Of a stretch of DNA of 64,000 nt, positions 3,735 to 62,588 are shown in pieces; position 1 is the stretch's first letter; the number at the start of each line of letters is the position of its first letter. Both the position numbers and the translations under genes were made by a program. The notes under the pieces are model-generated. The model searched no databases. It saw only the letters and a list, made by a program, of their open reading frames with translations, and was not told the origin of the DNA. Source of the DNA: an uncultured bacterium (GTDB lineage: Bacteria; Fidelibacterota; UBA2242); the NCBI GenBank assembly GCA_964441235.1, contig CAYTUQ010000002.1, positions 1,705 through 65,704 on the forward strand, written 5' to 3'.

Positions 3735-4127
3735 CTATTCAGCAATTGAAACTTTTGCACTTGTCTGTTTTAACTGATCAAGAACCTCAATATATGTGTG
3801 GTATTTGGTTCTTGCATGTGTTTTTACTGAAAATATCATCTTCGGATTTTTCAGTATAATACCCTCAACTGTAGATTTAATTTTGCTGATTTCTATTTCT
3901 TTGTTATCCAGTAATACTCTTCCTGTAGGATCAATTATGAGGTTTGTGATATTTTTCTTAGATATCTCAACCTGGTCTCCTTCTGCAGGTAGAATCAGTT
4001 GTATTCCTTTATCCATGTCAATAGTTGTAGCGACCATAAAGAAAATAAGAATAAGAAAAGCAATATCAGCCAGTGAGCTTGATGGTATTTCCGCTTCACG
4101 GATTCCTTTATTTTTTAATAAACTCAT
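3735..4127 (-). CDS. exbD: ExbD/TolR biopolymer transport protein (second copy)
   Basis: ExbD-like architecture, adjacent to exbB. Confidence 0.75.
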   Translation of the reverse strand: MSLLKNKGIREAEIPSSSLADIAFLILIFFMVATTIDMDKGIQLILPAEGDQVEISKKNITNLIIDPTGRVLLDNKEIEISKIKSTVEGIILKNPKMIFSVKTHARTKYHTYIEVLDQLKQTSAKVSIAE

Positions 4128-4138
4128 AATTATTGCCT

Positions 4139-4756
4139 TTAATCTTTTTTCACTTCATTTGCAGATAAGATATCTAAAAGATTTACTGAATTTTCTTCCA
4201 TATCAATGATAATACCATCTACACGTGCTGTAAAGAGATTATAGAAAATCGAGATAGTAATACCGACAATAAGACCAAATAAAGTGGTCAAAAGTGCTTC
4301 TGAAATACCACCTGCAACAACAGCAGGAGATATATCATTAGCAGCAGCAATATCTTGAAATGCTCTTACCATACCTGAAACTGTTCCGGCAAATCCTAAC
4401 ATGGGGGCAAGTGTGATAACTGTAGATAACCAGATCATTCCTTTCTCAAGGAAAGCCATTTCAATAGAACCTGCAGTTTCAATAGCTTTTTCAACAACCT
4501 CAACACCCTGGTCTGCACGAGAAAGACCGGCGTGAAAAACCTCAGCAATAGGTCCGGGAGTTTTCTTGCAAACTTCAAGAGCCTCAGCTACACCTTTATC
4601 ATTCAATGCCTTATTTATCTTTGGAATAAATTTTTTAGTAACCACAGAGGCTTTCGTTAAAGTGTAAATTCTTTCAAGTGTAACCATTAAACCGAAAATT
4701 AAGAGCCCCAAAATCGGCCACATAAAAATTCCACCCTGTAGAAAAAGATCAACCAT
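4139..4756 (-). CDS. exbB: MotA/TolQ/ExbB proton channel
   Basis: Three TM helices and conserved ExbB C-terminal core (...LGLLGTVSGM...). Confidence 0.8.
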   Translation of the reverse strand: MVDLFLQGGIFMWPILGLLIFGLMVTLERIYTLTKASVVTKKFIPKINKALNDKGVAEALEVCKKTPGPIAEVFHAGLSRADQGVEVVEKAIETAGSIEMAFLEKGMIWLSTVITLAPMLGFAGTVSGMVRAFQDIAAANDISPAVVAGGISEALLTTLFGLIVGITISIFYNLFTARVDGIIIDMEENSVNLLDILSANEVKKD

Positions 4757-5303
4757 TGAATTACTCCTTTAGTTATATAGTTATTCAGTTAAATCAAACG
4801 GCTGTTTATTTTAAGTGAATATTTTCTAAAAGTCAACATTATTTTCTATTTTATTTTCCGACAGTAAATAGCTTTTCACAATTATGTGTTAAATTAGAGT
4901 CAAGTTTATTAAAAATATTGGATATCAAAAATAATAAGTCCTCAAAAAAAATTCAAGTCGATGTTACTTCTATAAAAATATTTGATGGGATTGGCGGAGA
5001 CTCAGCTAAGGACTGATTTAATTAGAAATAATTAACGATTTATATTGCCATATTAATCTGAAAATACTACTTTGAACCGAAATCTTGATTTTTGATTTTG
5101 TGTGAAATAAAACCCAATTTCTGAGTTATTTATGATAGCGGGCATTTTTAACCTGAATAATTCGTGAATAAATGAATTTATAAGTTATTGGAGTTAAATT
5201 TCAAACAGTAAAAATAGGGAGGACTTAAAAGATTTATTTTCCTATCTTGGTATAAGTGCGAAAAATCCATAAGTTTTACTAGAACAGTGAGTAAAAGATT
5301 TAG

Positions 5304-6239
5304 ATGTACATAATTTATTTTTTAGCTGGATTAGTTTTACTCTACTATGGTGCTAATTTTCTTGTAAATGGCAGTTCCGCTATTGCAGTATCCCTCGGAG
5401 TTAAAAAAATTGTAGTTGGTCTAACACTTGTTGCTCTTGGTACATCAATGCCTGAGTTTGTTGTAAGTTTATTTGGTGCTGTTGAAAAGGTAGACGATGT
5501 AAGCGTTGGAAATATTGTTGGTAGCAATCTGGCAAATATTCTATTAGTTCTTGGAATCTCATCTTTTATTCATCCAATAAAAGCGAAGAGGAGGATATTT
5601 TTTCTTGACTTTCCAGTTCTCTTAATAATAACTGCTATTTTTATAATTTTTTGTTATGATGGGCGTTTAGTTTTTTACGAAGGTACCATTCTTCTAACCT
5701 TATTTGTCGCTTATATGTCATATATCATCGTTAATCGTAAAGTACAGGAAGAAAATGTTGTCGAAGTAAAAAATATTGAAAAGGGGCATATTTCAAAGAA
5801 TATAGCTTTATCTATTTTGGGATTAGGAGCATTGATAATGGGTGGGAATCTAACAGTTAGAGGAGCTATTGGATTGGCACGTGCTTTTGGTATTTCAGAA
5901 CTTATAATTGGTCTTACTATAGTTGCGCTTGGTACTTCTTTACCAGAACTCTTTACAAGTGTAATAGCAGTTATTAAAAGGGAAGATGAAATCTCTATAG
6001 GCAATATTATTGGGAGTAATCTTTTTAATACGGCATTTGTGTTAGGAATTATACCAATGGTCTATTCACTTAAAATAGATAAAAGCATAATCAGGATCGA
6101 GAATCCCTTTATGATGATTATTACTCTCATATTATTAATTTTTTTATTTATTGGGAAGAAATTGTCAAGAATTGAAGGAGTTTTTTTATTAATACTATAT
6201 GCCCTATTTATACTGAATCTGGGATATAGAATAATTTAG
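5304..6239 (+). CDS. Na+/Ca2+ exchanger family (CaCA, YrbG-like) membrane protein
   Basis: Two alpha-repeat signatures, GTSMPEFVVSL and GTSLPELFTSV. Ten predicted TM helices. Confidence 0.8.
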   Translation: MYIIYFLAGLVLLYYGANFLVNGSSAIAVSLGVKKIVVGLTLVALGTSMPEFVVSLFGAVEKVDDVSVGNIVGSNLANILLVLGISSFIHPIKAKRRIFFLDFPVLLIITAIFIIFCYDGRLVFYEGTILLTLFVAYMSYIIVNRKVQEENVVEVKNIEKGHISKNIALSILGLGALIMGGNLTVRGAIGLARAFGISELIIGLTIVALGTSLPELFTSVIAVIKREDEISIGNIIGSNLFNTAFVLGIIPMVYSLKIDKSIIRIENPFMMIITLILLIFLFIGKKLSRIEGVFLLILYALFILNLGYRII

Positions 6240-6517
6240 GGGGTGTGATAAAATAACCTTTAGGGGGTGTGTCGATCCTTAGGATTCCTTCGGAAAGACA
6301 TCCCTCTGGGAAGAAGAAATAAAATGGATTTTTGTATTATTCTAAGTTCAATCGCCAGACGGATCTCCGAAAAAATATTATGAATATAATTCTGTAAATG
6401 GTAATTAGTTTTTTCTCACCCCCTGAACATTTTTAGTATTGTAAATTCATCCCGAAGTTTCGGGACACAATGATAGTTAACCATGAATGACAACTTTATT
6501 CTATCACACCCCCTTAG
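6237..6517. mobile_element. MITE-like element with TAGGGGGTGTGATA terminal inverted repeats (~281 bp)
   Basis: The 14-15 nt motif is at 6237-6250, with a degenerate second copy at 6261-6275. Its reverse complement is at 6502-6517. A second, shorter 70-bp element with the same TIRs is at 43252-43321. Confidence 0.45.
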
Positions 6518-54643: not shown

Positions 54644-55465
54644 ATGTGGTACGAATCACTAAAATTTGAGAATCCGAAAACCGTAGAAGAAGCATTAAAC
54701 TGTCTGGAAACTGATGGTGCAGAAATCATTGCCGGGGGTACGGATGAACTCATTCAGATAAGAGAAAAGAAAAAATGTATAAAAAAATTAGTCAATATTG
54801 GAGATATAAAATCTCTTAAAAAGATAAAGAAAAAAGATAATACTCTAATTATTGGAGCATGTGTAACATATTCGGAGTTTCTTGAACTTGCTTCTGAAAA
54901 TTTGCCTCCATTGACAGATGCCGTAAAGCAAATTGCATCTCCCTCGATAAGAAATATTGCTACTTTTGGAGGAAATATTGTGAACGCTTCCCCTGCAGGT
55001 GATACTTTACCTGTTTTGTATGCTTTTAATGCGGAATTGGTTCTGGAGTCTTTGCAGGGCAAGAGAGTTGTAAAGATAAGCGATTTTATTGTCGGCCCAG
55101 GCAAAACAATACTGAATAATATAGAACTTCTAACCGAAATTCGGGTAAATATTCCATCCTTCACTTGTTACTATCGAAAATTCGGTCCACGTAAAGCATT
55201 AGCACTTTCGAAGGTTTCTTTTTGCGGAGTTCACCTGACTGATTACGATGAAATCCGATTGGCGTACGGCTCGGTGGGGCCTACTGTCATAAGGGCTTAT
55301 GAAGCAGAGGAATTATATAAAAAAGGTCAAAAAGACAAAATCCCAAAGTTAATAAATAAATTAGTTCAGCCAATAAATGACCAGCGCTCTACTGCGGAAT
55401 ATCGGAGATATCTGTGCGTGGAAATGACGAGGGAGTTTTTAAAAAAGTGTGAAAATTTGTCTTAA
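54644..55465 (+). CDS. FAD-binding subunit (CO dehydrogenase flavoprotein-like) of molybdo-hydroxylase
   Basis: FAD_binding_5-type motifs (AGGTDEL, ...FGGNIVNASPAGD...). Lacks the CO_deh_flav_C extension. Confidence 0.75.
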   Translation: MWYESLKFENPKTVEEALNCLETDGAEIIAGGTDELIQIREKKKCIKKLVNIGDIKSLKKIKKKDNTLIIGACVTYSEFLELASENLPPLTDAVKQIASPSIRNIATFGGNIVNASPAGDTLPVLYAFNAELVLESLQGKRVVKISDFIVGPGKTILNNIELLTEIRVNIPSFTCYYRKFGPRKALALSKVSFCGVHLTDYDEIRLAYGSVGPTVIRAYEAEELYKKGQKDKIPKLINKLVQPINDQRSTAEYRRYLCVEMTREFLKKCENLS

Positions 55466-55716
55466 ATTTTCTATTGATTGTTTCATTTTATTTGGTTACA
55501 CTAACTAATAGTATAAGTGATAAAGAGGAGAAATGAGATTTTATTACTTTAAATTTATAAATCAGAAAGATTTTGTAGATTATCCTAAATTTTCTTCAAT
55601 AATATCTAAATATGTCGAATATAGTAGAAGTCTGTATTAGGTATATGTTGTATTTATAATTTTTCAGGATTCTTTCGTGAGTAATGTTGGATTTTTAGAA
55701 ATTTATAATCGTTAAT

Positions 55717-56388
55717 ATGGAAAATAAAATGAATTTTGATGATCTTTATTTAAATAGAGTGATTTTGGAATTTAGATATGATGGAGGATTTCTATATTGG
55801 GACAAATGTGGAGAAACAATTTTAGATATTCAGAGTAATTTTCCTGAGTGGAATTGGGAAGGAATTTCAACTGAATTAGCAAGGTTGAAAAACCATACAA
55901 GAAATATGGAACTTGTGTTTAATTATAAAAATATACGCTTCATTCAAAATGAAGTCGAGAATCTGAACCAGTTCAAAGAAGCAGCAAGTAAGATTACACC
56001 AATAATTGTCAAAAGCCTTGAGATAAACAAATTCAAGCGAATAGGTAACAGATATCAGTATGTTTTTCCTCTGGAGAATCCTGAGCAGGGCAAGAAAATC
56101 ATAAGAGAGAGTTCCTTGATTAAAATACCTGAGGGAAAACTGGCCTTGTTTGGAGAGAATTCCATTAAAACTAATTTTATTGTCCACATTGAAAACGAAA
56201 ATTATCGTTACAGGATTGAACTTGTAGGCATCGAGCGAGTTGAGGTGCCAAAGAATATTAAGATTGATGAGCGGTTTAACCCCAAATATGGACTGCGTGT
56301 TGATGTAGATATTGCTACTATTAATAAAGTTAATGCTTTAGATTTTGATTGCAGTAGCTTTATTCAATCAAGCAAGAAGTTCCTGTAA
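55717..56388 (+). CDS. hypothetical protein (paralogous in architecture to 58883..59581; TIGR04255-like?)
   Basis: The N-terminal ...LNRVILEFRYD... and central ...FKRIGNRYQYVFPLE... parallel ...PVIEAVFEIRFP... and ...LNRTGLRYINHIPIE... in the second copy. Confidence 0.3.
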   Translation: MENKMNFDDLYLNRVILEFRYDGGFLYWDKCGETILDIQSNFPEWNWEGISTELARLKNHTRNMELVFNYKNIRFIQNEVENLNQFKEAASKITPIIVKSLEINKFKRIGNRYQYVFPLENPEQGKKIIRESSLIKIPEGKLALFGENSIKTNFIVHIENENYRYRIELVGIERVEVPKNIKIDERFNPKYGLRVDVDIATINKVNALDFDCSSFIQSSKKFL

Positions 56389-56418
56389 AATAATTTAATT
56401 AAATTTATCTAAGAATCA

Positions 56419-57087
56419 GTGATAAAGGAGGTAGTTCTTGTGAATAACACAACCACTGAGACAAGAATTGATGAGAGAGGTGAAGGAATCGCCAAATATG
56501 TTCTCTCAAGAGGAATGACTCAGGTTGAAACTGTAGGCACGTTCCCAAAAGAGCAATTTGCACCGTTCTATTTGCCAACAGAGGAAGAAGAAACTCATAA
56601 GGAATTAGAAGAAACAGATATGACTTTATCAACATCTCCTACAGGTGAAATTGAAAGAGAAATTATACCCACTATAAAAAGGCTAGTTGAAATCATTGAA
56701 TCTGCAATTAGTTTGCTTGATGAGGTATTGGAAGTTTATGATGATGAGATTGAAAGGATAAACACGTTTTCACTCTTTGAAGAAGAAATTAAATCTCTGT
56801 GGGAGTTACGGGAAGAGGCAAACAAGAACTTTGTAGATGTTCTCGTTCTTTTAGAAGTAGCAGCTAAAAATTCACATTATAAAAATTATCAGAAACATCA
56901 GTACCAATCTATAAAAATGGTTTTAGAAAAAATTAAGAGTATCTATATCACACCCCAGAACGCAAGAGAATGTAGAAGATTATTAATGGACAATGGGATT
57001 GACCTTTTTGCTCCTATCAGAAACTGGGAGAATTATACAGTTGAAATAAAGAAAAATAGTATCCTCTCAATAAAGCATGGTAAATAA
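56419..57087 (+). CDS. hypothetical acidic protein (partner of 55717 gene)
   Basis: Glu-rich, no recognisable motif. Separated from the 55717 gene by 30 nt. Confidence 0.25.
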   Translation: MIKEVVLVNNTTTETRIDERGEGIAKYVLSRGMTQVETVGTFPKEQFAPFYLPTEEEETHKELEETDMTLSTSPTGEIEREIIPTIKRLVEIIESAISLLDEVLEVYDDEIERINTFSLFEEEIKSLWELREEANKNFVDVLVLLEVAAKNSHYKNYQKHQYQSIKMVLEKIKSIYITPQNARECRRLLMDNGIDLFAPIRNWENYTVEIKKNSILSIKHGK

Positions 57088-57326
57088 ATTCTAAATTCTA
57101 ATATCTAAACTCTAAACAATTTTAAAATTCAAATGTTCAAATGCTCAAAATTCGGCAGATGCTGGACCGATGATTAAATGGATTCCCGTCGATACTTTTG
57201 GTCATTTTGATTTTGGGTTTTTAATTTGTTTAGTATTTCGGATTTCGTACTTCGGATTTTACCTTGTTGGAAATTTACTAATATCAAAGAAACTTACCAT
57301 AAGATATTGAGCGGATACGAAAAATA

Positions 57327-58019
57327 TTGAAACAAAATAGAAAGTTATTTTTAGAAACCACTATCCAGATAGATCGGTTCTCTGCTGACCTAGATAAAAA
57401 GGAAAGAATAGATAAGATAATTTCCCAGTTTAGCCAGATTCTAAGTTCTACTTACGTGAAGATGGAATTCAGAAGAAGGTTTATCCAGGATTTAGTTTAC
57501 CTTTACAATGAAGCCATTTGGGGTGCTGAAACTTTTGCCGATGTCTATGCTAGAATTGACAAACTACATTCTGATTTCCATAAAAGGAAAATTAAAGGGA
57601 TAGTTGCCAGTTTTTACAGATTTTTTTCAGATACCAAAGATGAAGAAATTTCAGGAACATTAGGTAAGATAATTTTAGAAAAAGTAAGACCGTATTTTAA
57701 ACAAATTATATTAGCTGCCTGGGAAAGTTTTGATTTTGGGATCAATACAATACTAAATGAGATTAATTGCTATCATGGATTGAGAGGTCCAGTTCAAAAA
57801 GGCGGGAAGTTTGATAATAGGATGAGCAAGTGTAAAAAAGCAGATATAAGATGTAAGATTCAGGAATTCTTCAATAGAAATATGGAAACTTTCAGAAAAA
57901 TATATGACAAATTTTCTCAAATGGACTGTTTGGATAGTGAACAACAAAAGATGAAGAAATTCTTGAAAAATATAATTCGCTTGAAGGGCTTGCAAATCAG
58001 CCACTTGAAAATTTATTGA
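57327..58019 (+). CDS. hypothetical protein
   Basis: ORF only. Confidence 0.25.
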   Translation: MKQNRKLFLETTIQIDRFSADLDKKERIDKIISQFSQILSSTYVKMEFRRRFIQDLVYLYNEAIWGAETFADVYARIDKLHSDFHKRKIKGIVASFYRFFSDTKDEEISGTLGKIILEKVRPYFKQIILAAWESFDFGINTILNEINCYHGLRGPVQKGGKFDNRMSKCKKADIRCKIQEFFNRNMETFRKIYDKFSQMDCLDSEQQKMKKFLKNIIRLKGLQISHLKIY

Positions 58020-58107
58020 AAATTAAAGGCATATCCGACGTGAAGATAATACGAATAGCTGCAGCTTTTGAAATAGCACTGAGACTGATAGAAAGAAAGA
58101 AGAAATA
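57941..58107 (+). pseudogene. RadC N-terminal (HhH) remnant
   Basis: The frame reads ...DEEILEKYNSLEGLANQPLENLLKIKGISDVKIIRIAAAFEIALRLIERKKK*, matching the RadC N-terminal 'LL..FGSL.GL..A..EEL..IKGIG.AKA.QL.A..ELA.R'. The JAB domain is absent. Confidence 0.4.
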
Positions 58108-58130
58108 ATTTGTCTAATAAGAAAACCAGG

Positions 58131-58536
58131 CTAACTGAAAGAGCAACAAGTTATTTTAAAAGGGATTATTACTGAGAGTGGAACATATTATTATGAAACA
58201 AATAATATAAATGAGGCATTATATTTACTATCTGTTCTAAATTCGGTAATAGTAGATAAACTTGTCAAACCACTTCAAGTGCGTGGGCTATGGGGATCCC
58301 GTCATTTTCATAAAAAAGTTCTCAAGCTGCCCATTCCGCAATTTGGTGTAAATAATACGCATCATCATAGACTAGCAGAAATTGGTAAAGAATGTAGTAA
58401 AAAAGTAGAAAAATGGTTAAAATGTGGTGGAGTGGGAAAGATTAGAAGTATTGGGAAGTTGCGGAGTATGGTGAGGGAAATGTTGAGGGGAGAGTTGGGG
58501 GAGATTGATGGGGTGGTGGAAGGGATTCTTAGATAA
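58131..58536 (+). pseudogene. remnant of a DNA methyltransferase / type IIG enzyme C-terminal TaqI_C-like target-recognition domain
   Basis: ...YYYETNNINEALYLLSVLNSVIVDKLVKPLQVRGLWGSRHFHKKVLKLPIPQF... is paralogous to 60309..60740. It fits the 'YYLLaiLNS.l..fy.k.....G......i..lPIP' pattern and is N-terminally truncated by a stop. Confidence 0.4.
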
Positions 58537-58882
58537 AAAAAAGCACAAAGGATAAAACAGAAGTTATTTGCGAAATATTATAACTCGTTTCATAATGAAT
58601 TATCAAATTGATTTTTTAATAAAGATTTAGACGAGGGAGTTTTTAAATGACTTATGCAAAATTTCTTGTTGATTTATTTATTTCATTTACTTAAAATAAT
58701 TATAGGAAAGATGTACAAGAGAAGAAATATTGCCTTATCATTTAAATCTGTTGTATTATTGGGTATTAATTTTACGATTTTTGATTACTTTTTGAACAAT
58801 TGAGTGAGGAAAGTAGTCAAGAGATTGGGAATAGAATATTAAACTTTTAATCAGAATTGGTTAAAGTAAATCTGAGGACAAA

Positions 58883-59581
58883 ATGAATACTAAATATATT
58901 GATCCTCCTGTTATAGAGGCTGTTTTCGAAATTAGATTTCCTGCAGAATTATCTATAGAATCTCAAAGAGATAAGTACTATGAAAAGATTAGAGAATATT
59001 TCCCCGATATTTCCGTTCCTAAGGTTGAAAGTCCAGAGCCTTATCCTCTAAAACCTTATCGGTTTGAAACTTCTGATAAATTAAAGATGATCCAATTTTC
59101 AATCAATAGATTTTCTTTTCATACTAAGAAGTATAATACATTTAATGAATTCAATACGGAAGTGATTAATTATATTGAATCTTTTTGCGAGCTGTATAGA
59201 ATATCAAAACTCAATAGAACAGGATTAAGATATATCAATCACATTCCTATAGAACGAGAAAATGGAGTTTTGCAAATATCTAAATATTTGAAATTTGGAT
59301 ATATTTTACCTGATATTATTCCAAGCAACTTAGAACTGTTTCAAACGGTCTTATTGTCACGAATTGAAGAGGGGAAATTAAGGATATTAATTGCTTCTCA
59401 AAATGCAATAGGTACCGGGGATGGAGAGATTATGGTGCTTGACTTTGATTTCTTTTTTGAGGGTGATCTTTCTGTAGATTTGTTAAAGAATTATTTACAA
59501 AATTCTCATATACATACTAAGAAAGTTTTTGAAAGTTTGATTAGTAAAGAATACAGAAGTATTCCAGAGAAAGGGGATTAA
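58883..59581 (+). CDS. hypothetical protein (second copy of 55717-type family; TIGR04255-like?)
   Basis: See 55717. Its stop abuts the next gene's ATG. Confidence 0.3.
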   Translation: MNTKYIDPPVIEAVFEIRFPAELSIESQRDKYYEKIREYFPDISVPKVESPEPYPLKPYRFETSDKLKMIQFSINRFSFHTKKYNTFNEFNTEVINYIESFCELYRISKLNRTGLRYINHIPIERENGVLQISKYLKFGYILPDIIPSNLELFQTVLLSRIEEGKLRILIASQNAIGTGDGEIMVLDFDFFFEGDLSVDLLKNYLQNSHIHTKKVFESLISKEYRSIPEKGD

Positions 59582-60061
59582 ATGGATGTTTCTGGTGAAA
59601 CAGTTGAAAAGTTAACTTATCACAATATGTATGATTATCCGGGTGGACAGATTGAGACTTACAAGGGATGGACAGGACCCGGCAAATTTATTGCTCAGGG
59701 AGGTTCCTATGTACCTTTAGCCTATGTTCCGATAAGGCGTGAAGTTCTAACTATGCTTTTATCAGTTGATTCCCAGGTACAAGGCATTATTGAAAAAATA
59801 AATGGCTTGGAAAATAGAGTTTCTACGTTGGAAAAAGGAATTTCATCGGTAGGGATGATTGAGATTTCTGAATCAAATCCAATTGAAGGTAATATTAGGA
59901 TAACAAAAACGGAGGCGAGGAAAAAGATATTAAAACACTTTCAGCTAAGAGGTGAGTTAGATTACTTTGACATAGTAGAAGATCTTGGTCTAGACTTGAA
60001 ATTTGTTGTTGAAATTTGTGAAGAACTAGAAAATGAGAAAGAAATAAAAGCAGTAAAATAA
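59582..60061 (+). CDS. hypothetical protein (partner of 58883 gene)
   Basis: ORF only. Translationally coupled to the upstream gene. Confidence 0.25.
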   Translation: MDVSGETVEKLTYHNMYDYPGGQIETYKGWTGPGKFIAQGGSYVPLAYVPIRREVLTMLLSVDSQVQGIIEKINGLENRVSTLEKGISSVGMIEISESNPIEGNIRITKTEARKKILKHFQLRGELDYFDIVEDLGLDLKFVVEICEELENEKEIKAVK

Positions 60062-60308
60062 TGCCAATATATTTCAAAGAGGGGGATGCAATTCAGGGTG
60101 AAAAATTAGTTTTCACTTGTAGGAAATTTAGTATCTCTAAGAAACCTGTAAAACGAACATCAGCTCATAGAGCACAGAGTGGGAAATTAGATAACGCATA
60201 TTGTGTAATAAATAAGCGTTTTAGGCACATACCAGAGAAATGAAGGTAAAAAAGTATCAATTATATGCTATTTTAAAATAAAATCATCATGTAATTTACA
60301 AATATCGA

Positions 60309-60740
60309 GTGATTTGTAATACTTCGGGGACATTTCTTACTGCTGCAACTGTTGAAAATGAACCTATAGCATTTGAGATTAACGGTCAGAAAATTATATC
60401 AAATGGATTCGTAGCTGATTATGTAACTTACTATTTCGAAACATCAAATTTTAAAGAAGCATACTATCTTAGTTCAATTCTGAACTCTCCTATCCTGAAC
60501 ATTCTGATCAAGCCTATGCAAGCACGGGGCTTATGGGGTCCTCGGGATATTCATAAAAAAGTTCTCGAGTTGCCCATTCCGCAGTTTGATGCGGAAAACT
60601 CCCAACATCGGCAATTGACTGAATTGGGCCAAGCCTGCTCTGCCAAAGTCAGGCAGTGGGTCAACAGCGGCGGTCTCGGCAATATTCGCAGCATCGGTAC
60701 GCTGCTCACACGATGGAAACGTTATACGAAACCGGTATAA
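60309..60740 (+). pseudogene. fragment: TaqI_C-like C-terminal target-recognition domain of an N6-MTase / type IIG enzyme, no catalytic domain
   Basis: ...EAYYLSSILNSPILNILIKPMQARGLWGPRDIHKKVLELPIPQFDAENSQHRQLTELGQ... No NPPY/FxGxG-bearing ORF lies upstream. Confidence 0.4.
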
Positions 60741-61312
60741 TTTAATTTTGGGTTATTTTTAAAGTAAGGAAGTGTATTATGGTTGAACAATTAAGTAAGG
60801 AAATTCTTGCTTTTGAAAGTGATCATATATGGGTACATGAGAATTTTGATGATTTGCTTAAAGATTATCAAGACCGGTGGATTGACAAATTTCAAGTTTC
60901 AATCATAGCCTCAGCCTTTGTAGTCAATGGGACAGGCAAGTTTCAAGTATCACGTTTTACGTATTAATTTATATGAAAGTAACCACGAATTACACTAATT
61001 ACACTAATTGAAACCGTTCACCCCGTTAGATACTTACTATTTTAAACAATGAATATCTATCAGGGGTTGTTATCTTACGGGGTTCATGGTTTACAGTTTA
61101 TGGTTAACGGTCTCTTAATCCCACCCCGATTTGTATAAGTTAGTTTTGAACATTAGACATTGAGATTTGTAATTTGTTTGAAATTTGATCCGCCAGCTGG
61201 TGGATTAATATTTGCAATTTGCAATTTGATATTTATTTTGTCTCAGCCTTTTTAAATTTCACGCTTCGTTGTGGTGAAAAATCATGGGTGTTATTAACAA
61301 TATGTTGCTAAT

Positions 61313-62281
61313 ATGTACTTTGAAGCTGAATTAAACGAAGCCATTCGGTTGAAACAGAAGAAGGAATATCACCGGGCATGGGAACTGTTTGATGAGATTT
61401 CAAAGTCCAATCCCCGGTCGGCTTATTTCTGGTCCAATTATGCCCATTTGGCATTCCTGATGAACCGATATCAGAAAGCAAAGGAGTTTTCGGAAACGGC
61501 TTTGAGCATTGACCCCCTGTCCAGATTTGTGAGGTCGTTATATTCATCTATCCTGCTTCACACTAATGATACAGCGTCTTCTCTGGAATTAATACAGGAA
61601 CTCATCGAAGAAAAAATGGAAGTTCCTCTTTTGAAAAAATTGGTGAAAGCCGGTGAATCTCTGGGAATTCTCAACGATCTTGAGCCGTATTTCAATGATT
61701 GGATTCTACGATTTCACAGTGATAGAGAATTTGTTTCAACAGCGGCTGAGTATTACCATAAAATTGGTAAGACAGAGAAGACAATTGAACTTTATCAACG
61801 ACTGGTATCGGAAGAAAAATCAAACGATTTTATTTATGAACGTTTGATAGCACTTAAGACACTGGGCAAGTCAAGTCAGGAAAAAATCCGCGAACTGGAA
61901 ATAATACTGAAGCTTCCATCTCAGGAGAGGAATATTCACCTACTTGGTCTGTTGGCACGAGAGTACAAGAAAAGCAAGGAGTGGGGAAAGGCAGAACAAA
62001 CATATCGCAAGATACTTTCCATTAATCCTGATGATTTGTTTCAAAAGAAACAGATGGGATTTCTCTACGCCCGGAGTGGCAATCTGGAACAGGCTGTTGA
62101 AATCTTGAAAGATTGTTTATTTAAAGACCCAGACGACCATTTTGTCCGTAGTTCCCTGCTCTCAGCTTTTAAAAAGATGAACAGTAAGGAAAAAGCTCTT
62201 CAATTCATTGATCAGTTGCTCCTCCATTATCCTGAGAAGAAGAGTTATCTGGGTATTCGGAAAAGAGTTGAGAAGTGGTAA
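61313..62281 (+). CDS. tetratricopeptide-repeat protein
   Basis: Multiple 34-aa TPR-like repeats (W..LG/A..Y...G....A...Y..AL..DP). Confidence 0.6.
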   Translation: MYFEAELNEAIRLKQKKEYHRAWELFDEISKSNPRSAYFWSNYAHLAFLMNRYQKAKEFSETALSIDPLSRFVRSLYSSILLHTNDTASSLELIQELIEEKMEVPLLKKLVKAGESLGILNDLEPYFNDWILRFHSDREFVSTAAEYYHKIGKTEKTIELYQRLVSEEKSNDFIYERLIALKTLGKSSQEKIRELEIILKLPSQERNIHLLGLLAREYKKSKEWGKAEQTYRKILSINPDDLFQKKQMGFLYARSGNLEQAVEILKDCLFKDPDDHFVRSSLLSAFKKMNSKEKALQFIDQLLLHYPEKKSYLGIRKRVEKW

Positions 62282-62351: not shown

Positions 62352-62588
62352 TAAAACGCAGAGGCGCAGAGAACGCAGGGAGAAAAAGAAATATTGTAAA
62401 TAGATAAGATGTCGAAAATAGTATCATTAATTAGACGCTAAGGAAAGTTGAAAGATTATGAACATATATTTTAAACAGAGATTGTGAAATGAATAGGAAA
62501 ATTAACATAACTAATCATAAAAATTCTGCGTCTAAAGAATATTATATATCATTTAAATCTCTGCGTTCTCTGCGCCTCTGCGTTTATA
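62352..62588. repeat. ~240-bp element bounded by a perfect 25-nt inverted repeat (AAACGCAGAGGCGCAGAGAACGCAG)
   Basis: 62356-62380 equals the reverse complement of 62561-62585. The core is AT-rich. It lies immediately upstream of the brxC-like gene. Confidence 0.7.

What the first reader, a model, noticed from the sequence alone, without database searches (positions are those of the whole stretch)
55717..60061. Duplicated two-gene cassette of unknown function inside a defense-gene graveyard
The 55717 and 58883 products share architecture, an N-terminal '...EFRYD/EIRFP...' block and an internal 'RxGxRYxxxxPxE' block. Each is followed by a closely coupled second gene (56419, 59582).

Between and after them lie a RadC N-terminal remnant (57941-58107) and two TaqI_C-like methyltransferase TRD tails (58131-58536, 60309-60740) that are paralogous to each other. 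The cassette could be an uncharacterised defense or TA-like pair that repeatedly lands in such hotspots.
Basis: partly seen in the sequence, partly recalled or inferred. Interest (0 to 1): 0.5.

Follow-up and report, generated by a model that had tools for sequence, protein, structure and literature searches.

The report
Two TIGR04255-led three-gene toxin-antitoxin-like cassettes
The flagged region holds two very distantly related copies, one decayed and one intact, of a widespread but unstudied three-gene mobile module. In each, a TIGR04255-type protein is followed by a variable small protein and a variable putative toxin, which is HicA or PIN in relatives, so this looks like an undescribed three-part toxin-antitoxin-like family and not a duplicated gene pair.

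Summary
The ORFs exist as described. The two first-gene products are true but very remote homologues:
- BLASTP is not significant.
- Profile-profile comparison gives E 7e-6.
- The predicted folds are the same.

A2 (58883-59581) is a bona fide TIGR04255 member (109.6 bits). A1 (55717-56388) falls below the family cut-off.

The "duplicated two-gene cassette" reading is wrong in two ways. The second genes are unrelated to each other, and each cassette is a conserved three-gene operon.

- **Cassette 1** is A1 + B1 + C1 (57327-58019). The same trio occurs in about 18 metagenome loci.
- **Cassette 2** is A2 + B2 + c2 (60061-60243). The same trio occurs in L106 and L117.

In 75 other genomes TIGR04255 genes are followed, usually with 4-nt or 1-nt overlaps, by a HicB-fold protein and then a class-8 HicA toxin. 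In a few loci a PIN nuclease is third instead. Flanking genes are not conserved.

Cassette 1 is a relic:
- a nonsense codon in A1;
- a 260-bp MITE at the B1/C1 junction;
- C1 truncated and joined to a RadC fragment;
- a 35-nt deletion in B1 in another sample.

Cassette 2 looks intact.

Best reading: these are tripartite toxin-antitoxin-like or defence modules in which the TIGR04255 protein, a TBP-like pseudo-dimer with a conserved charged sheet face, is a constant accessory or sensor subunit. This is inferred, not shown.

The parts
55426..55534 (+). 3' end of the xanthine-dehydrogenase-type FAD-subunit gene (54644-55465) plus downstream spacer. This is copy 1 of a ~109-nt segment that precedes each cassette.
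   Evidence: There is an 18-nt exact repeat at 55426 and 58630. The similarity extends to 109 nt at 68% identity, E 4e-4. The local alignment score is 55 versus 25 +/- 3.3 in shuffles.
55717..56388 (+). A1: a distant TIGR04255-superfamily protein and gene 1 of cassette 1. It ends at a premature TAA, 8 codons before the native stop at 56410-56412.
   Evidence: NCBIfam TIGR04255 gives 0.014 / 15 bits. hhalign against the TIGR04255 clade gives E 7e-6. The model has pLDDT 89.5 and the same fold as A2. All 22 aligned homologues continue as ...FLENNLIKFI, while the window reads FL*NNLIKFI*. The relative L115, at the same genomic site, has an intact 231-aa gene.
56440..57087 (+). B1: gene 2 of cassette 1 (the ORF opens at 56419; the likely start is GTG 56440). 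It has a variable N-terminal ~85 aa and a conserved helical C-terminal domain of unknown family. Its last codons now run into the MITE.
   Evidence: A B1 homologue follows the A1-type gene in 22 of 25 loci. There were no significant Pfam, NCBIfam, PADLOC, PHROG or PDB matches.
57059..57318 (.). A 260-bp MITE-like insertion with 22-bp terminal inverted repeats. It is flanked by a perfect 8-bp target-site duplication, GAAAAATA, at 57051-57058 and 57319-57326.
   Evidence: The segment is absent from all four homologous loci compared, where the flanking sequences are contiguous. The terminal repeats match at 17 of 22 positions and the target-site duplication is exact. Removing the element restores the B1 end ...VEIKKNIETK* and the canonical 14-nt overlap with the start of C1.
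57327..58019 (+). C1: gene 3 of cassette 1 (the 'f3' family, ~270 aa in relatives), here truncated. Homology ends at 57970, so the C-terminal ~50 residues are lost, including the conserved NCWNCGDAIIAVE...TTNxKHF block. I take it to be a PIN-like nuclease on motif grounds only.
   Evidence: A homologue is present and overlaps gene 2 by 4-17 nt in most of the A1-type loci with sequence downstream (18 loci counted). DNA homology runs 57321-57970. Pfam, NCBIfam and PDB gave nothing significant.
57932..58107 (+). Remnant of a RadC N-terminal helix-hairpin-helix region, abutting the truncated C1.
   Evidence: The translation reads ...LEGLANQPLENLLKIKGISDVKIIRIAAAFEIALRLIERKKK*. The Pfam matches are weak: HHH_5 7.5e-4 and UPF0758_N 6.5e-3.
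58131..58536 (+). C-terminal fragment 1 of a Type IIG restriction-methyltransferase-like gene.
   Evidence: It is a paralogue of fragment 2. It has no family hit of its own.
58630..58728 (+). Copy 2 of the FAD-gene 3' end plus spacer. It reads TREFLNDLCKISC*, compared with TREFLKKCENLS* at the end of the real gene.
58883..59581 (+). A2: a TIGR04255 family protein and gene 1 of cassette 2, full length.
   Evidence: NCBIfam TIGR04255 gives 2.1e-31 and 109.6 bits against a cut-off of 30. There are 118 homologues. The model has pLDDT 88.8 and a TBP-like pseudo-dimer fold.
59582..60061 (+). B2: gene 2 of cassette 2. It has a variable N-terminus, a coiled-coil-like middle and a conserved C-terminal GELDYxxIxxxLxLDLKxVVEICEELExEK domain. 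By eye this domain may be a winged helix.
   Evidence: There is a 0-nt gap after A2. Homologues sit in the same position in L106 (48% identity) and L117 (39%). The word-index search found only the protein itself. It is unrelated to B1 and to the HicB-like partners.
60061..60243 (+). c2: gene 3 of cassette 2. It is a 60-aa basic protein of an uncharacterised family and overlaps the B2 stop by 1 nt. I take it to be the candidate toxin or effector (inferred).
   Evidence: It is 73% identical to the ORF in the same position in L106 and 53% to that in L117. The family has 27 cluster representatives of 55-77 aa at E <= 1e-3 in 1.84 billion proteins. R21, H36 and C48 are nearly invariant. It has no PDB relative and is unrelated to HicA.
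60309..60740 (+). C-terminal fragment 2 of a Type IIG restriction-methyltransferase-like gene.
   Evidence: PADLOC REase_MTase_IIG models give 4e-7 and 2e-6, matching the last ~80 profile positions.

Best explanation
The region carries two independent members of one large family of mobile three-gene modules.

- **Gene 1** is a TIGR04255-superfamily protein. Its predicted fold is a TBP-like pseudo-dimer (beta-alpha-beta4-alpha followed by beta-alpha-beta3-alpha). The conserved residues are charged and sit at alternating positions on three strands: E..E.R, R.G.R and D.D.
- **Gene 2** is a lineage-variable small protein with a poorly conserved N-terminal stretch and a conserved C-terminal domain.
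- **Gene 3** is a variable putative toxin.

In most TIGR04255 loci genes 2 and 3 are a HicB-fold antitoxin and a class-8 HicA RNase. In others gene 3 is a PIN nuclease. In this window the pairs are B1 + C1 (PIN-like by motifs only) and B2 + c2 (unknown small basic protein).

Most likely mechanism (inferred):
1. Gene 3 arrests growth, probably as an RNase.
2. Gene 2 neutralises it through its conserved domain.
3. The TIGR04255 protein is a constant third subunit. It holds the gene-2 protein, or the toxin-antitoxin complex, through the variable N-terminal stretch.
4. It couples toxin release to something bound on its charged sheet face, such as a nucleotide or nucleic acid, for example during phage infection.

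Cassette 1 is a dead relic: the toxin is truncated and the rest is decaying. Cassette 2 appears intact and could be active.

Shown: architecture, coupling, conservation, module borders, partner identities in relatives, fold and decay. Inferred: toxicity, neutralisation, and the role of gene 1.
For: - **Three-gene architecture.** 61 of 66 TIGR04255 loci with room downstream have a same-strand gene within +/-60 nt (36 with a 4-nt overlap, 11 with a 1-nt overlap). 52 of 63 have a third coupled gene. 22 of 25 A1-type loci have a B1-type second gene, and 18 have a coupled third gene.
- **Gene 3 in canonical loci.** 8 of 37 members hit Pfam HicA_toxin (best 1.9e-4). The family HMM hits Gerdes' class-8 HicA from Thermococcus litoralis at 2e-20 (sequences from PMC10865869 Table S1).
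- **Gene 2 in canonical loci.** 17 of 35 members hit the PHD_like antitoxin family (best 3.3e-4). The profile hits PDB 3k6q at 0.008. The HMM hits the HicB-fold C-terminus of class-8 HicB at 2e-12.
- **PIN third genes.** L109 at 2.3e-7, L080 at 3.3e-7 and L116 (weak).
- **Bridging locus.** L100 has an A1-like gene 1 with the HicB/HicA-type partners.
- **The module moves as a unit.** Synteny with L106 covers only 58861-60277. Synteny with four other loci covers only 55718-57970.
- **No conserved neighbourhood.** There are 139 Pfam families among 143 nearest neighbours, none seen more than twice. Some genomes carry two loci.
- **GC content.** It falls to 26-35% across the island, against 38-40% upstream.
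- **Decay pattern fits a toxin-first loss.** C1 is truncated, the MITE uncouples it, there is a nonsense codon in A1, and a 35-nt B1 deletion is polymorphic.
- **Past selection.** A1 and B1 were under purifying selection until recently (dN/dS about 0.2 against L115).
- **Possible physical link.** One in-frame A1-B1 fusion ORF exists, in L081.
- **Gene-2 proteins have poorly conserved N-terminal halves**.
Against: - No toxicity, neutralisation or interaction has been tested. No paper in the library mentions TIGR04255.
- The window's own partners (B1, C1, B2, c2) match no toxin or antitoxin family. The PIN-like reading of C1 and the winged-helix reading of B2 rest on motifs seen by eye. hhalign of the f3 family against one PIN protein found nothing.
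- PADLOC has no model matching A1 or A2.
- Neighbours are not predominantly defence genes.
- The module is almost absent from viral contigs (2 of 2.9 million) and from plasmids (1 record).
Confidence: 0.5

Rival explanations
1. Chaperone model, like the toxin-antitoxin-chaperone (TAC) systems. The TIGR04255 protein is a dedicated chaperone. It binds a destabilising extension of the antitoxin and protects it from aggregation or proteolysis. It has no sensing or catalytic role.
For: - One conserved component is combined with several unrelated toxin-antitoxin pairs. SecB-like chaperones do the same with HigBA, MqsRA and HicAB (PMC5105189).
- Gene-2 proteins carry extra, poorly conserved N-terminal segments, reminiscent of the non-similar ChAD chaperone-addiction extensions.
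Against: - The conserved residues of gene 1 are charged (E, R, R.G.R, D.D, H/T/K) and not a hydrophobic groove.
- The gene order differs: the accessory gene comes first here.
Confidence: 0.15
2. Gene 1 is itself the effector enzyme, for example an ATP-using modifier with a guanidino-kinase/McsB-like sheet. Gene 2 is its inhibitor, and gene 3 is an auxiliary or second toxin.
For: - Glutamate-cysteine ligase and glutamine synthetase appear lower in the list.
- Alternating conserved Arg, Asp and Glu on adjacent strands resembles a nucleotide and metal site.
Against: - TBP, Med20 and AdoMetDC score equally well.
- In relatives gene 3 is an established toxin type (HicA, PIN) with its own antitoxin-type partner.
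- In the decayed cassette gene 3 is the most damaged gene, as expected if it is the toxic part.
Confidence: 0.12
3. One reading: a recent tandem duplication of a two-gene cassette.
For: Both cassettes are preceded by copies of the same ~109-nt segment. Both are followed by paralogous Type IIG C-terminal fragments. The 'slot' therefore does look duplicated.
Against: - A1 and A2 are not similar by BLASTP.
- B1 and B2 are unrelated, and so are C1 and c2.
- Each trio has closer relatives in other organisms than in the neighbouring cassette.
- A relative at 86% nucleotide identity already has cassette 1 at this site.
Confidence: 0.03
4. There is no functional unit. TIGR04255 is an ordinary stand-alone gene that happens to lie next to toxin-antitoxin genes in gene-dense islands.
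For: Function is unknown. Neighbours include many toxin-antitoxin genes, for example VapBC beside the Thermus plasmid copy.
Against: - Overlapping stop and start codons occur in most loci.
- The same three-gene order is found across Zixibacteria, Omnitrophota, Nitrospirota, Acidobacteriota, Elusimicrobiota, Planctomycetota and an Asgard archaeon.
- Synteny breaks exactly at the edges of the trio.
Confidence: 0.05

Closest known systems
NCBIfam TIGR04255 family protein (function unknown; named 'sporadTIGR04255')
   Same: A2 is a full-length member (109.6 bits; cut-off 30). A1 has the same predicted fold, the same collinear motifs, and a weak partial hit.
   Different: A1 fails the curated cut-off (15.2 bits) and belongs to a separate clade with its own partners. 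The family has no described function or operon context in the searchable literature.
Class 8 hicBA modules (Gerdes 2024, mBio, PMC10865869)
   Same: The second and third genes of most TIGR04255 operons are homologous to the class-8 HicB C-terminal HicB-fold domain and to the ~95-aa class-8 HicA. Gene order is antitoxin then toxin, with overlaps.
   Different: Class-8 HicB is 331-376 aa, with N-terminal domains that the TIGR04255 HMMs do not match. In the TIGR04255 loci studied here (not in this window) HicB is short (~140 aa) and a separate TIGR04255 gene lies upstream. The two cassettes in this window contain no HicA or HicB at all.
Tripartite toxin-antitoxin-chaperone (TAC) systems with SecB-like chaperones (PMC5105189, PMC6377645)
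   Same: A conserved third protein is combined with several unrelated toxin-antitoxin families. The antitoxins carry non-conserved extensions.
   Different: The third protein here has a TBP-like fold with conserved charged residues, not a SecB fold. It is encoded first, not last. The extension is N-terminal. No chaperone activity has been shown.
VapBC / PIN-domain toxin-antitoxin pairs
   Same: In L080, L109 and L116 the third gene is a Pfam PIN-domain protein preceded by a small partner. The f3 family (C1) has four PIN-like acidic motif positions by eye.
   Different: f3 gives no significant PIN match. It is ~270 aa and has a Cys-rich insert. There is an extra upstream TIGR04255 gene.
TBP-domain superfamily and the guanidino-kinase/glutamine-synthetase-type sheet (fold level)
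   Different: Sequence identity is 3-12%. None of the catalytic or DNA-binding signatures was tested or seen. This is a resemblance only.

Membership tests
TIGR04255 (NCBIfam) | Whole-protein score at or above the curated cut-off of 30 bits, with a full-length match to the 252-position model. | tested here: met
   A2 scores 109.6 bits, E 2.1e-31, matching residues 5-225 to model positions 2-248.
TIGR04255 (NCBIfam) | The same criterion applied to A1 (55717-56388). | tested here: not met
   A1 scores 15.2 bits, E 0.014, a partial match of residues 68-167 to model positions 82-183. Superfamily-level homology is supported instead by hhalign E 7e-6, HMM cross-hits and the same predicted fold.
HicBA toxin-antitoxin (class 8) | A HicA dsRBD-type toxin gene adjacent to a HicB-fold antitoxin gene. 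| tested here: not met
   For the window's own cassettes, B1, B2, C1 and c2 show no similarity to the HicB-like or HicA-like profiles or to the Pfam HicA/HicB families. The criterion is met only in related TIGR04255 loci.
Type II toxin-antitoxin system (generic) | Small adjacent co-directional genes that are translationally coupled, sporadically distributed and mobile. | tested here: met
   Gaps are 0 nt and -1 nt in cassette 2. A -14 overlap is restored in cassette 1 once the MITE is removed. Synteny is limited to the trio. Neighbours are heterogeneous.
Type II toxin-antitoxin system (generic) | One product is toxic and is neutralised by direct binding of the other. | not testable with these tools
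   This requires expression and rescue assays.
PIN-domain nuclease (for C1 / the f3 family) | A significant match to a PIN profile, or a PIN fold with four conserved acidic residues. | tested here: inconclusive
   Pfam PIN matched 1 of 14 members, at 0.08. NCBIfam and PDB gave nothing. hhalign against the L109 PIN protein was negative. The motifs LFL(D/E)TT, STYVKME, CGDAII and TTNxKHF are present by eye. The window copy lacks the last two.
TAC (toxin-antitoxin-chaperone) | The third component is a SecB-like chaperone. | tested here: not met
Known anti-phage defence systems (PADLOC-DB v2) | A match of any cassette protein to a PADLOC model. | tested here: not met
   A1, A2, C1, B2 and c2 gave no hit. 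B1 gave only 0.065 to PDC-M09A. Only the Type IIG tail matched.
Phosphagen / protein-arginine kinase catalytic domain | Sequence-level homology and the catalytic motifs of guanidino kinases. | tested here: not met

The most novel reading that the evidence does not exclude
The TIGR04255 superfamily is a previously unrecognised, widespread 'third subunit'. It plugs into many unrelated toxin-antitoxin pairs: class-8 HicBA, PIN-type pairs, and several wholly new pairs such as B1/C1 and B2/c2. It would act as a ligand- or nucleic-acid-sensing switch that decides when the toxin is released. That would make it a new tripartite toxin-antitoxin or defence architecture, and it would bring at least four new partner families to light.
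Probability: 0.35. Interest if true: 0.7.

Novelty: new variant of a known kind. Interest (0 to 1): 0.55.

Why it matters
TIGR04255 is a curated family that has had no function since it was defined. No paper in the searchable library mentions it.

Its near-constant position ahead of a HicB/HicA pair or a PIN-type pair gives it a concrete, testable context. The same holds for its pairing with novel partner families in this window.

It also extends the known class-8 hicBA arrangement, whose regulation was noted as unexplained (PMC10865869).

If the first gene is a sensor or gate, this would be a new way of controlling toxin-antitoxin or abortive-infection modules. The four uncharacterised partner families (B1, f3, B2, c2) would then be candidate new antitoxins and toxins.

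Cassette 2 is a compact 1.4-kb unit that appears intact and is suitable for direct cloning.

Tried and rejected
- **Direct similarity.** BLASTP of A1 against A2 and of B1 against B2 was not significant. Homology of the first genes needed profiles.
- **Common origin of the second and third genes.** hhalign of B2, B1 and c2 against the HicB-like and HicA-like profiles was all negative.
- **Class-8 HicB as a TIGR04255-HicB fusion.** The TIGR04255 HMMs do not hit its N-terminal 250 aa, so this was rejected.
- **Naming the f3 family.** Pfam, NCBIfam, a PDB profile search and hhalign against one PIN protein gave nothing significant.
- **Naming B1, B2 and c2.** Pfam, NCBIfam, PADLOC, PHROGs and PDB profiles gave only sub-threshold noise, such as HlyE, MarR and AcaB.
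- **c2 truncated in the window.** Rejected. Family lengths are 55-77 aa and the tails vary.
- **A third copy of the 18-nt repeat, as an att-like triple.** None found.
- **Other copies of the MITE in the window.** None found.
- **Promoter and terminator scans.** Uninformative in this AT-rich DNA.
- **AFDB50 fold search.** The library was unavailable.
- **Viral fold library.** It returned only TBP-like or unnamed proteins.

Full report
**What is there**

- A1, 55717-56388
- B1, 56419-57087
- A2, 58883-59581
- B2, 59582-60061

The segment 55500-60500 has 26-35% G+C, against 38-40% in the xanthine-dehydrogenase-type operon upstream. In a longer contig of the same organism the next genes downstream are a TPR protein, a 1748-aa BrxC/PglY-like protein and a DEAD-box helicase. 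The setting is therefore a variable, defence-flavoured island.

**Are the two first genes related?**

BLASTP says no (E 0.27). NCBIfam places A2 firmly in TIGR04255 (109.6 bits, cut-off 30) and A1 only marginally (15.2 bits).

Each protein has its own family: 118 hits for A2 and 47 for A1. Several lines of evidence link the two families:
- Comparing the two family alignments gives a collinear 188-column match (hhalign 84%, E 7.4e-6).
- HMMs built from each family cross-hit members of the other, down to 2e-9.
- AlphaFold models of both are confident (pLDDT 88.8 and 89.5). Both have the same order of elements: beta-alpha-beta4-alpha, then beta-alpha-beta3-alpha.

The two are homologues at superfamily level, with a TBP-like pseudo-dimeric fold. 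A1 is not a TIGR04255 member by the curated test.

**The unit is a trio, and the two trios are different**

I fetched 75 genomic loci for the A2 family and 25 metagenomic loci for the A1 family and called ORFs in them.

*TIGR04255-type loci.*
- 61 of 66 with room downstream have a same-strand gene within +/-60 nt: 36 with a 4-nt overlap and 11 with a 1-nt overlap.
- 52 of 63 have a third coupled gene.
- In 57 loci the second gene is one ~140-aa family. In 48 loci the third is one ~95-100-aa family.

*Identity of those partners.*
- The third family is HicA-like. 8 of 37 members hit Pfam HicA_toxin. Its HMM hits the class-8 HicA of Thermococcus litoralis from Gerdes 2024 at 2e-20.
- The second family carries a HicB-type fold. 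17 of 35 members hit PHD_like antitoxin, and the profile hits PDB 3k6q at 0.008. Its HMM hits the class-8 HicB C-terminal domain at 2e-12.
- The large N-terminal part of class-8 HicB is not TIGR04255.
- Other TIGR04255 loci have a PIN protein as third gene: L109 at 2.3e-7, L080 at 3.3e-7 and L116 (weak). Others have further unknown pairs.

*A1-type loci.*
- 22 of 25 have a B1 homologue.
- 18 then have a ~270-aa 'f3' protein overlapping it by 4-17 nt. The window's C1 is this protein.
- One A1-like locus (L100) instead carries the HicB/HicA-type pair, which bridges the two clades.

*Cassette 2.* The trio recurs in L106 (A 65%, B2 48%, c2 73% identity) and in L117. c2 belongs to a real small-protein family: 27 cluster representatives of 55-77 aa, with R21, H36 and C48 nearly invariant.

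B1, B2 and the HicB-like family are mutually unrelated. So are c2 and the HicA-like family.

**The module behaves like a selfish or defence element**

- Similarity to L106 covers only window 58861-60277. Similarity to four cassette-1 relatives covers only 55718-57056 and 57321-57970.
- The nearest flanking proteins of about 75 loci fall into 139 Pfam families out of 143 proteins, and none recurs more than twice. They mix housekeeping enzymes with GmrSD, AbiEii-like ATPases, integrases, BrxL and a transposase.
- Several genomes carry two loci.
- The module is rare on viral contigs (2 hits).
- A single plasmid in the collection carries it. In that plasmid, from Thermus, the gene sits beside VapBC, a DNA methylase and cas6.

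**State of the two cassettes**

*Cassette 1 is a relic.*
- A1 ends at a TAA where all 22 homologues have Glu. The eight native codons and the native stop are still readable behind it.
- A 260-bp element sits exactly at the B1/C1 junction. It has 22-bp inverted ends and a perfect 8-bp target duplication (GAAAAATA). Removing it restores the B1 C-terminus and the canonical 14-nt overlap with C1.
- C1 loses homology at 57970. It lacks the conserved C-terminal ~50 residues and runs into a RadC N-terminal fragment.
- Another sample of the same population has a 35-nt deletion in B1.
- A relative at 86% nucleotide identity (L115) has an intact A1 and B1 at the same place, behind the same FAD-subunit gene. 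Cassette 1 is therefore an old resident and the damage is recent.
- dN/dS against that relative is about 0.2 for both genes.

*Cassette 2 looks intact.* It has full-length genes, a 0-nt gap and a 1-nt overlap.

**The slot**

Each cassette is preceded by a copy of the same ~109-nt segment. Copy 1 is the true 3' end of the FAD-subunit gene. Copy 2 still reads TREFLN....

Each cassette is also followed by a paralogous C-terminal fragment of a Type IIG restriction-methyltransferase.

So the flanks look duplicated, but the cargo does not. This fits two successive arrivals or replacements at a duplicated site better than a duplication of the cassette itself. I could not resolve the history further.

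**Mechanism**

*Shown.* The coupled three-gene architecture; the constancy of gene 1 and the interchangeability of genes 2 and 3; the HicB/HicA and PIN identity of partners in relatives; the fold of gene 1; and its conserved charged residues at alternating positions on three strands (E12/E16/R18, R112/G114/R116 and D187/D189 in A2, with counterparts in A1).

*Inferred.* Gene 3 is the toxin. Gene 2 is its antitoxin. Gene 1 is an accessory subunit that binds the variable N-terminal part of gene 2 (conservation profile) and gates toxin release in response to a ligand on its charged face.

One natural in-frame A1-B1 fusion (L081) is a weak hint of physical association.

A SecB-like chaperone role, as in TAC systems, and an enzymatic effector role for gene 1 are the main alternatives.

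I put about 0.5 on the tripartite toxin-antitoxin-like or defence reading. I put about 0.25 on the specific sensor or gate role of gene 1.

**Novelty**

A2's family is already catalogued, and class-8 hicBA has been described bioinformatically. The following appear undescribed, since no paper in the library mentions TIGR04255:
- the systematic placement of a TIGR04255-superfamily gene ahead of HicBA, PIN and novel pairs;
- the A1 clade with its B1 and f3 partners;
- the B2/c2 pair.

I rate this a new variant of a known kind, tripartite toxin-antitoxin-like modules.

**Limits**

- The f3, B1, B2 and c2 families remain unnamed.
- The PIN-like reading of C1 and the winged-helix reading of B2 are by eye only.
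- No coordinates of the models were available to map residues in 3-D.

Noticed in passing
window 57051-57326: A 260-bp MITE-like element (57059-57318) has 22-bp terminal inverted repeats (17 of 22 matching) and a perfect 8-bp target-site duplication, GAAAAATA. There is no other copy in the window, and the parent transposon family is unknown.
   Followed up: partly
window 56930-56964 (versus L001 6377-6381): A contig of the same organism from another sample (JGI 3300031864) lacks these 35 nt. That truncates B1 to 171 aa, so cassette 1 is polymorphic and decaying within the population.
   Followed up: partly
window 55426-55534 and 58630-58728: The 3' end of the FAD-subunit gene plus its downstream spacer is duplicated (68% over 109 nt, including an 18-nt exact core) in front of cassette 2. 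Together with the two paralogous Type IIG tails, this suggests an old duplication of the insertion slot or an att-like scar. No integrase was seen.
   Followed up: partly
L115 (SRR26275509 contig) versus window 55072-57042: A relative at 86% nucleotide identity has the same FAD gene - A1 - B1 arrangement with an intact A1. Synonymous divergence of A1 (dS 0.155) is far lower than that of the flanking FAD gene (1.08) or B1 (0.85). This hints at a recent recombination or gene-conversion tract over A1.
   Followed up: no
L081 147-1484: In this metagenome contig the A1 stop codon is replaced by CAA. A1 and B1 therefore form one in-frame 445-aa ORF, while the internal ribosome-binding site and GTG start are kept. 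It could be a real fusion or an assembly error.
   Followed up: no
window 62354-62381 and 62558-62585: A 28-nt inverted repeat (96% identity) lies in the spacer between the TPR gene (61313-62281) and the start (~62639) of the 1748-aa BrxC/PglY-like gene, which runs off the window.
   Followed up: no
window 60779-60967: By eye, this 62-aa ORF after Type IIG tail 2 begins like a DUF5678-type small protein. L106 has a DUF5678 gene two ORFs downstream of its c2 gene. A 21-nt near-copy of the ORF's start lies at 58792-58812. There is no family hit.
   Followed up: no
L109, L116 versus window, L106, L117: Among the closest A2 relatives (56-65% identity) the third gene alternates between the small c2 type (60-69 aa) and a ~200-aa PIN protein. 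The second gene changes with it, and the PIN-linked versions lack the GELDY...VVEICEELE domain. The toxin-antitoxin part is therefore swapped beneath an almost unchanged gene 1.
   Followed up: partly
L114 (Acinetobacter 'phage' MD-2021a contig) 3986-6133; L113 (Thermus brockianus pTB1) 5001-6303: Distant TIGR04255-like genes (23% identity) again head coupled downstream ORFs. In Acinetobacter the sizes are 260 + 181 + 270 aa. In Thermus a 147-aa ORF follows, next to VapBC, an N4/N6 methylase and cas6.
   Followed up: no
window 56419-56440: The B1 ORF opens at GTG 56419. However, a strong ribosome-binding site (AAGGAGG, 56425-56431) and the homologue alignments point to GTG 56440 as the real start. 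Likewise, A1 homologues mostly start at the ATG at 55729, not at 55717.
   Followed up: yes
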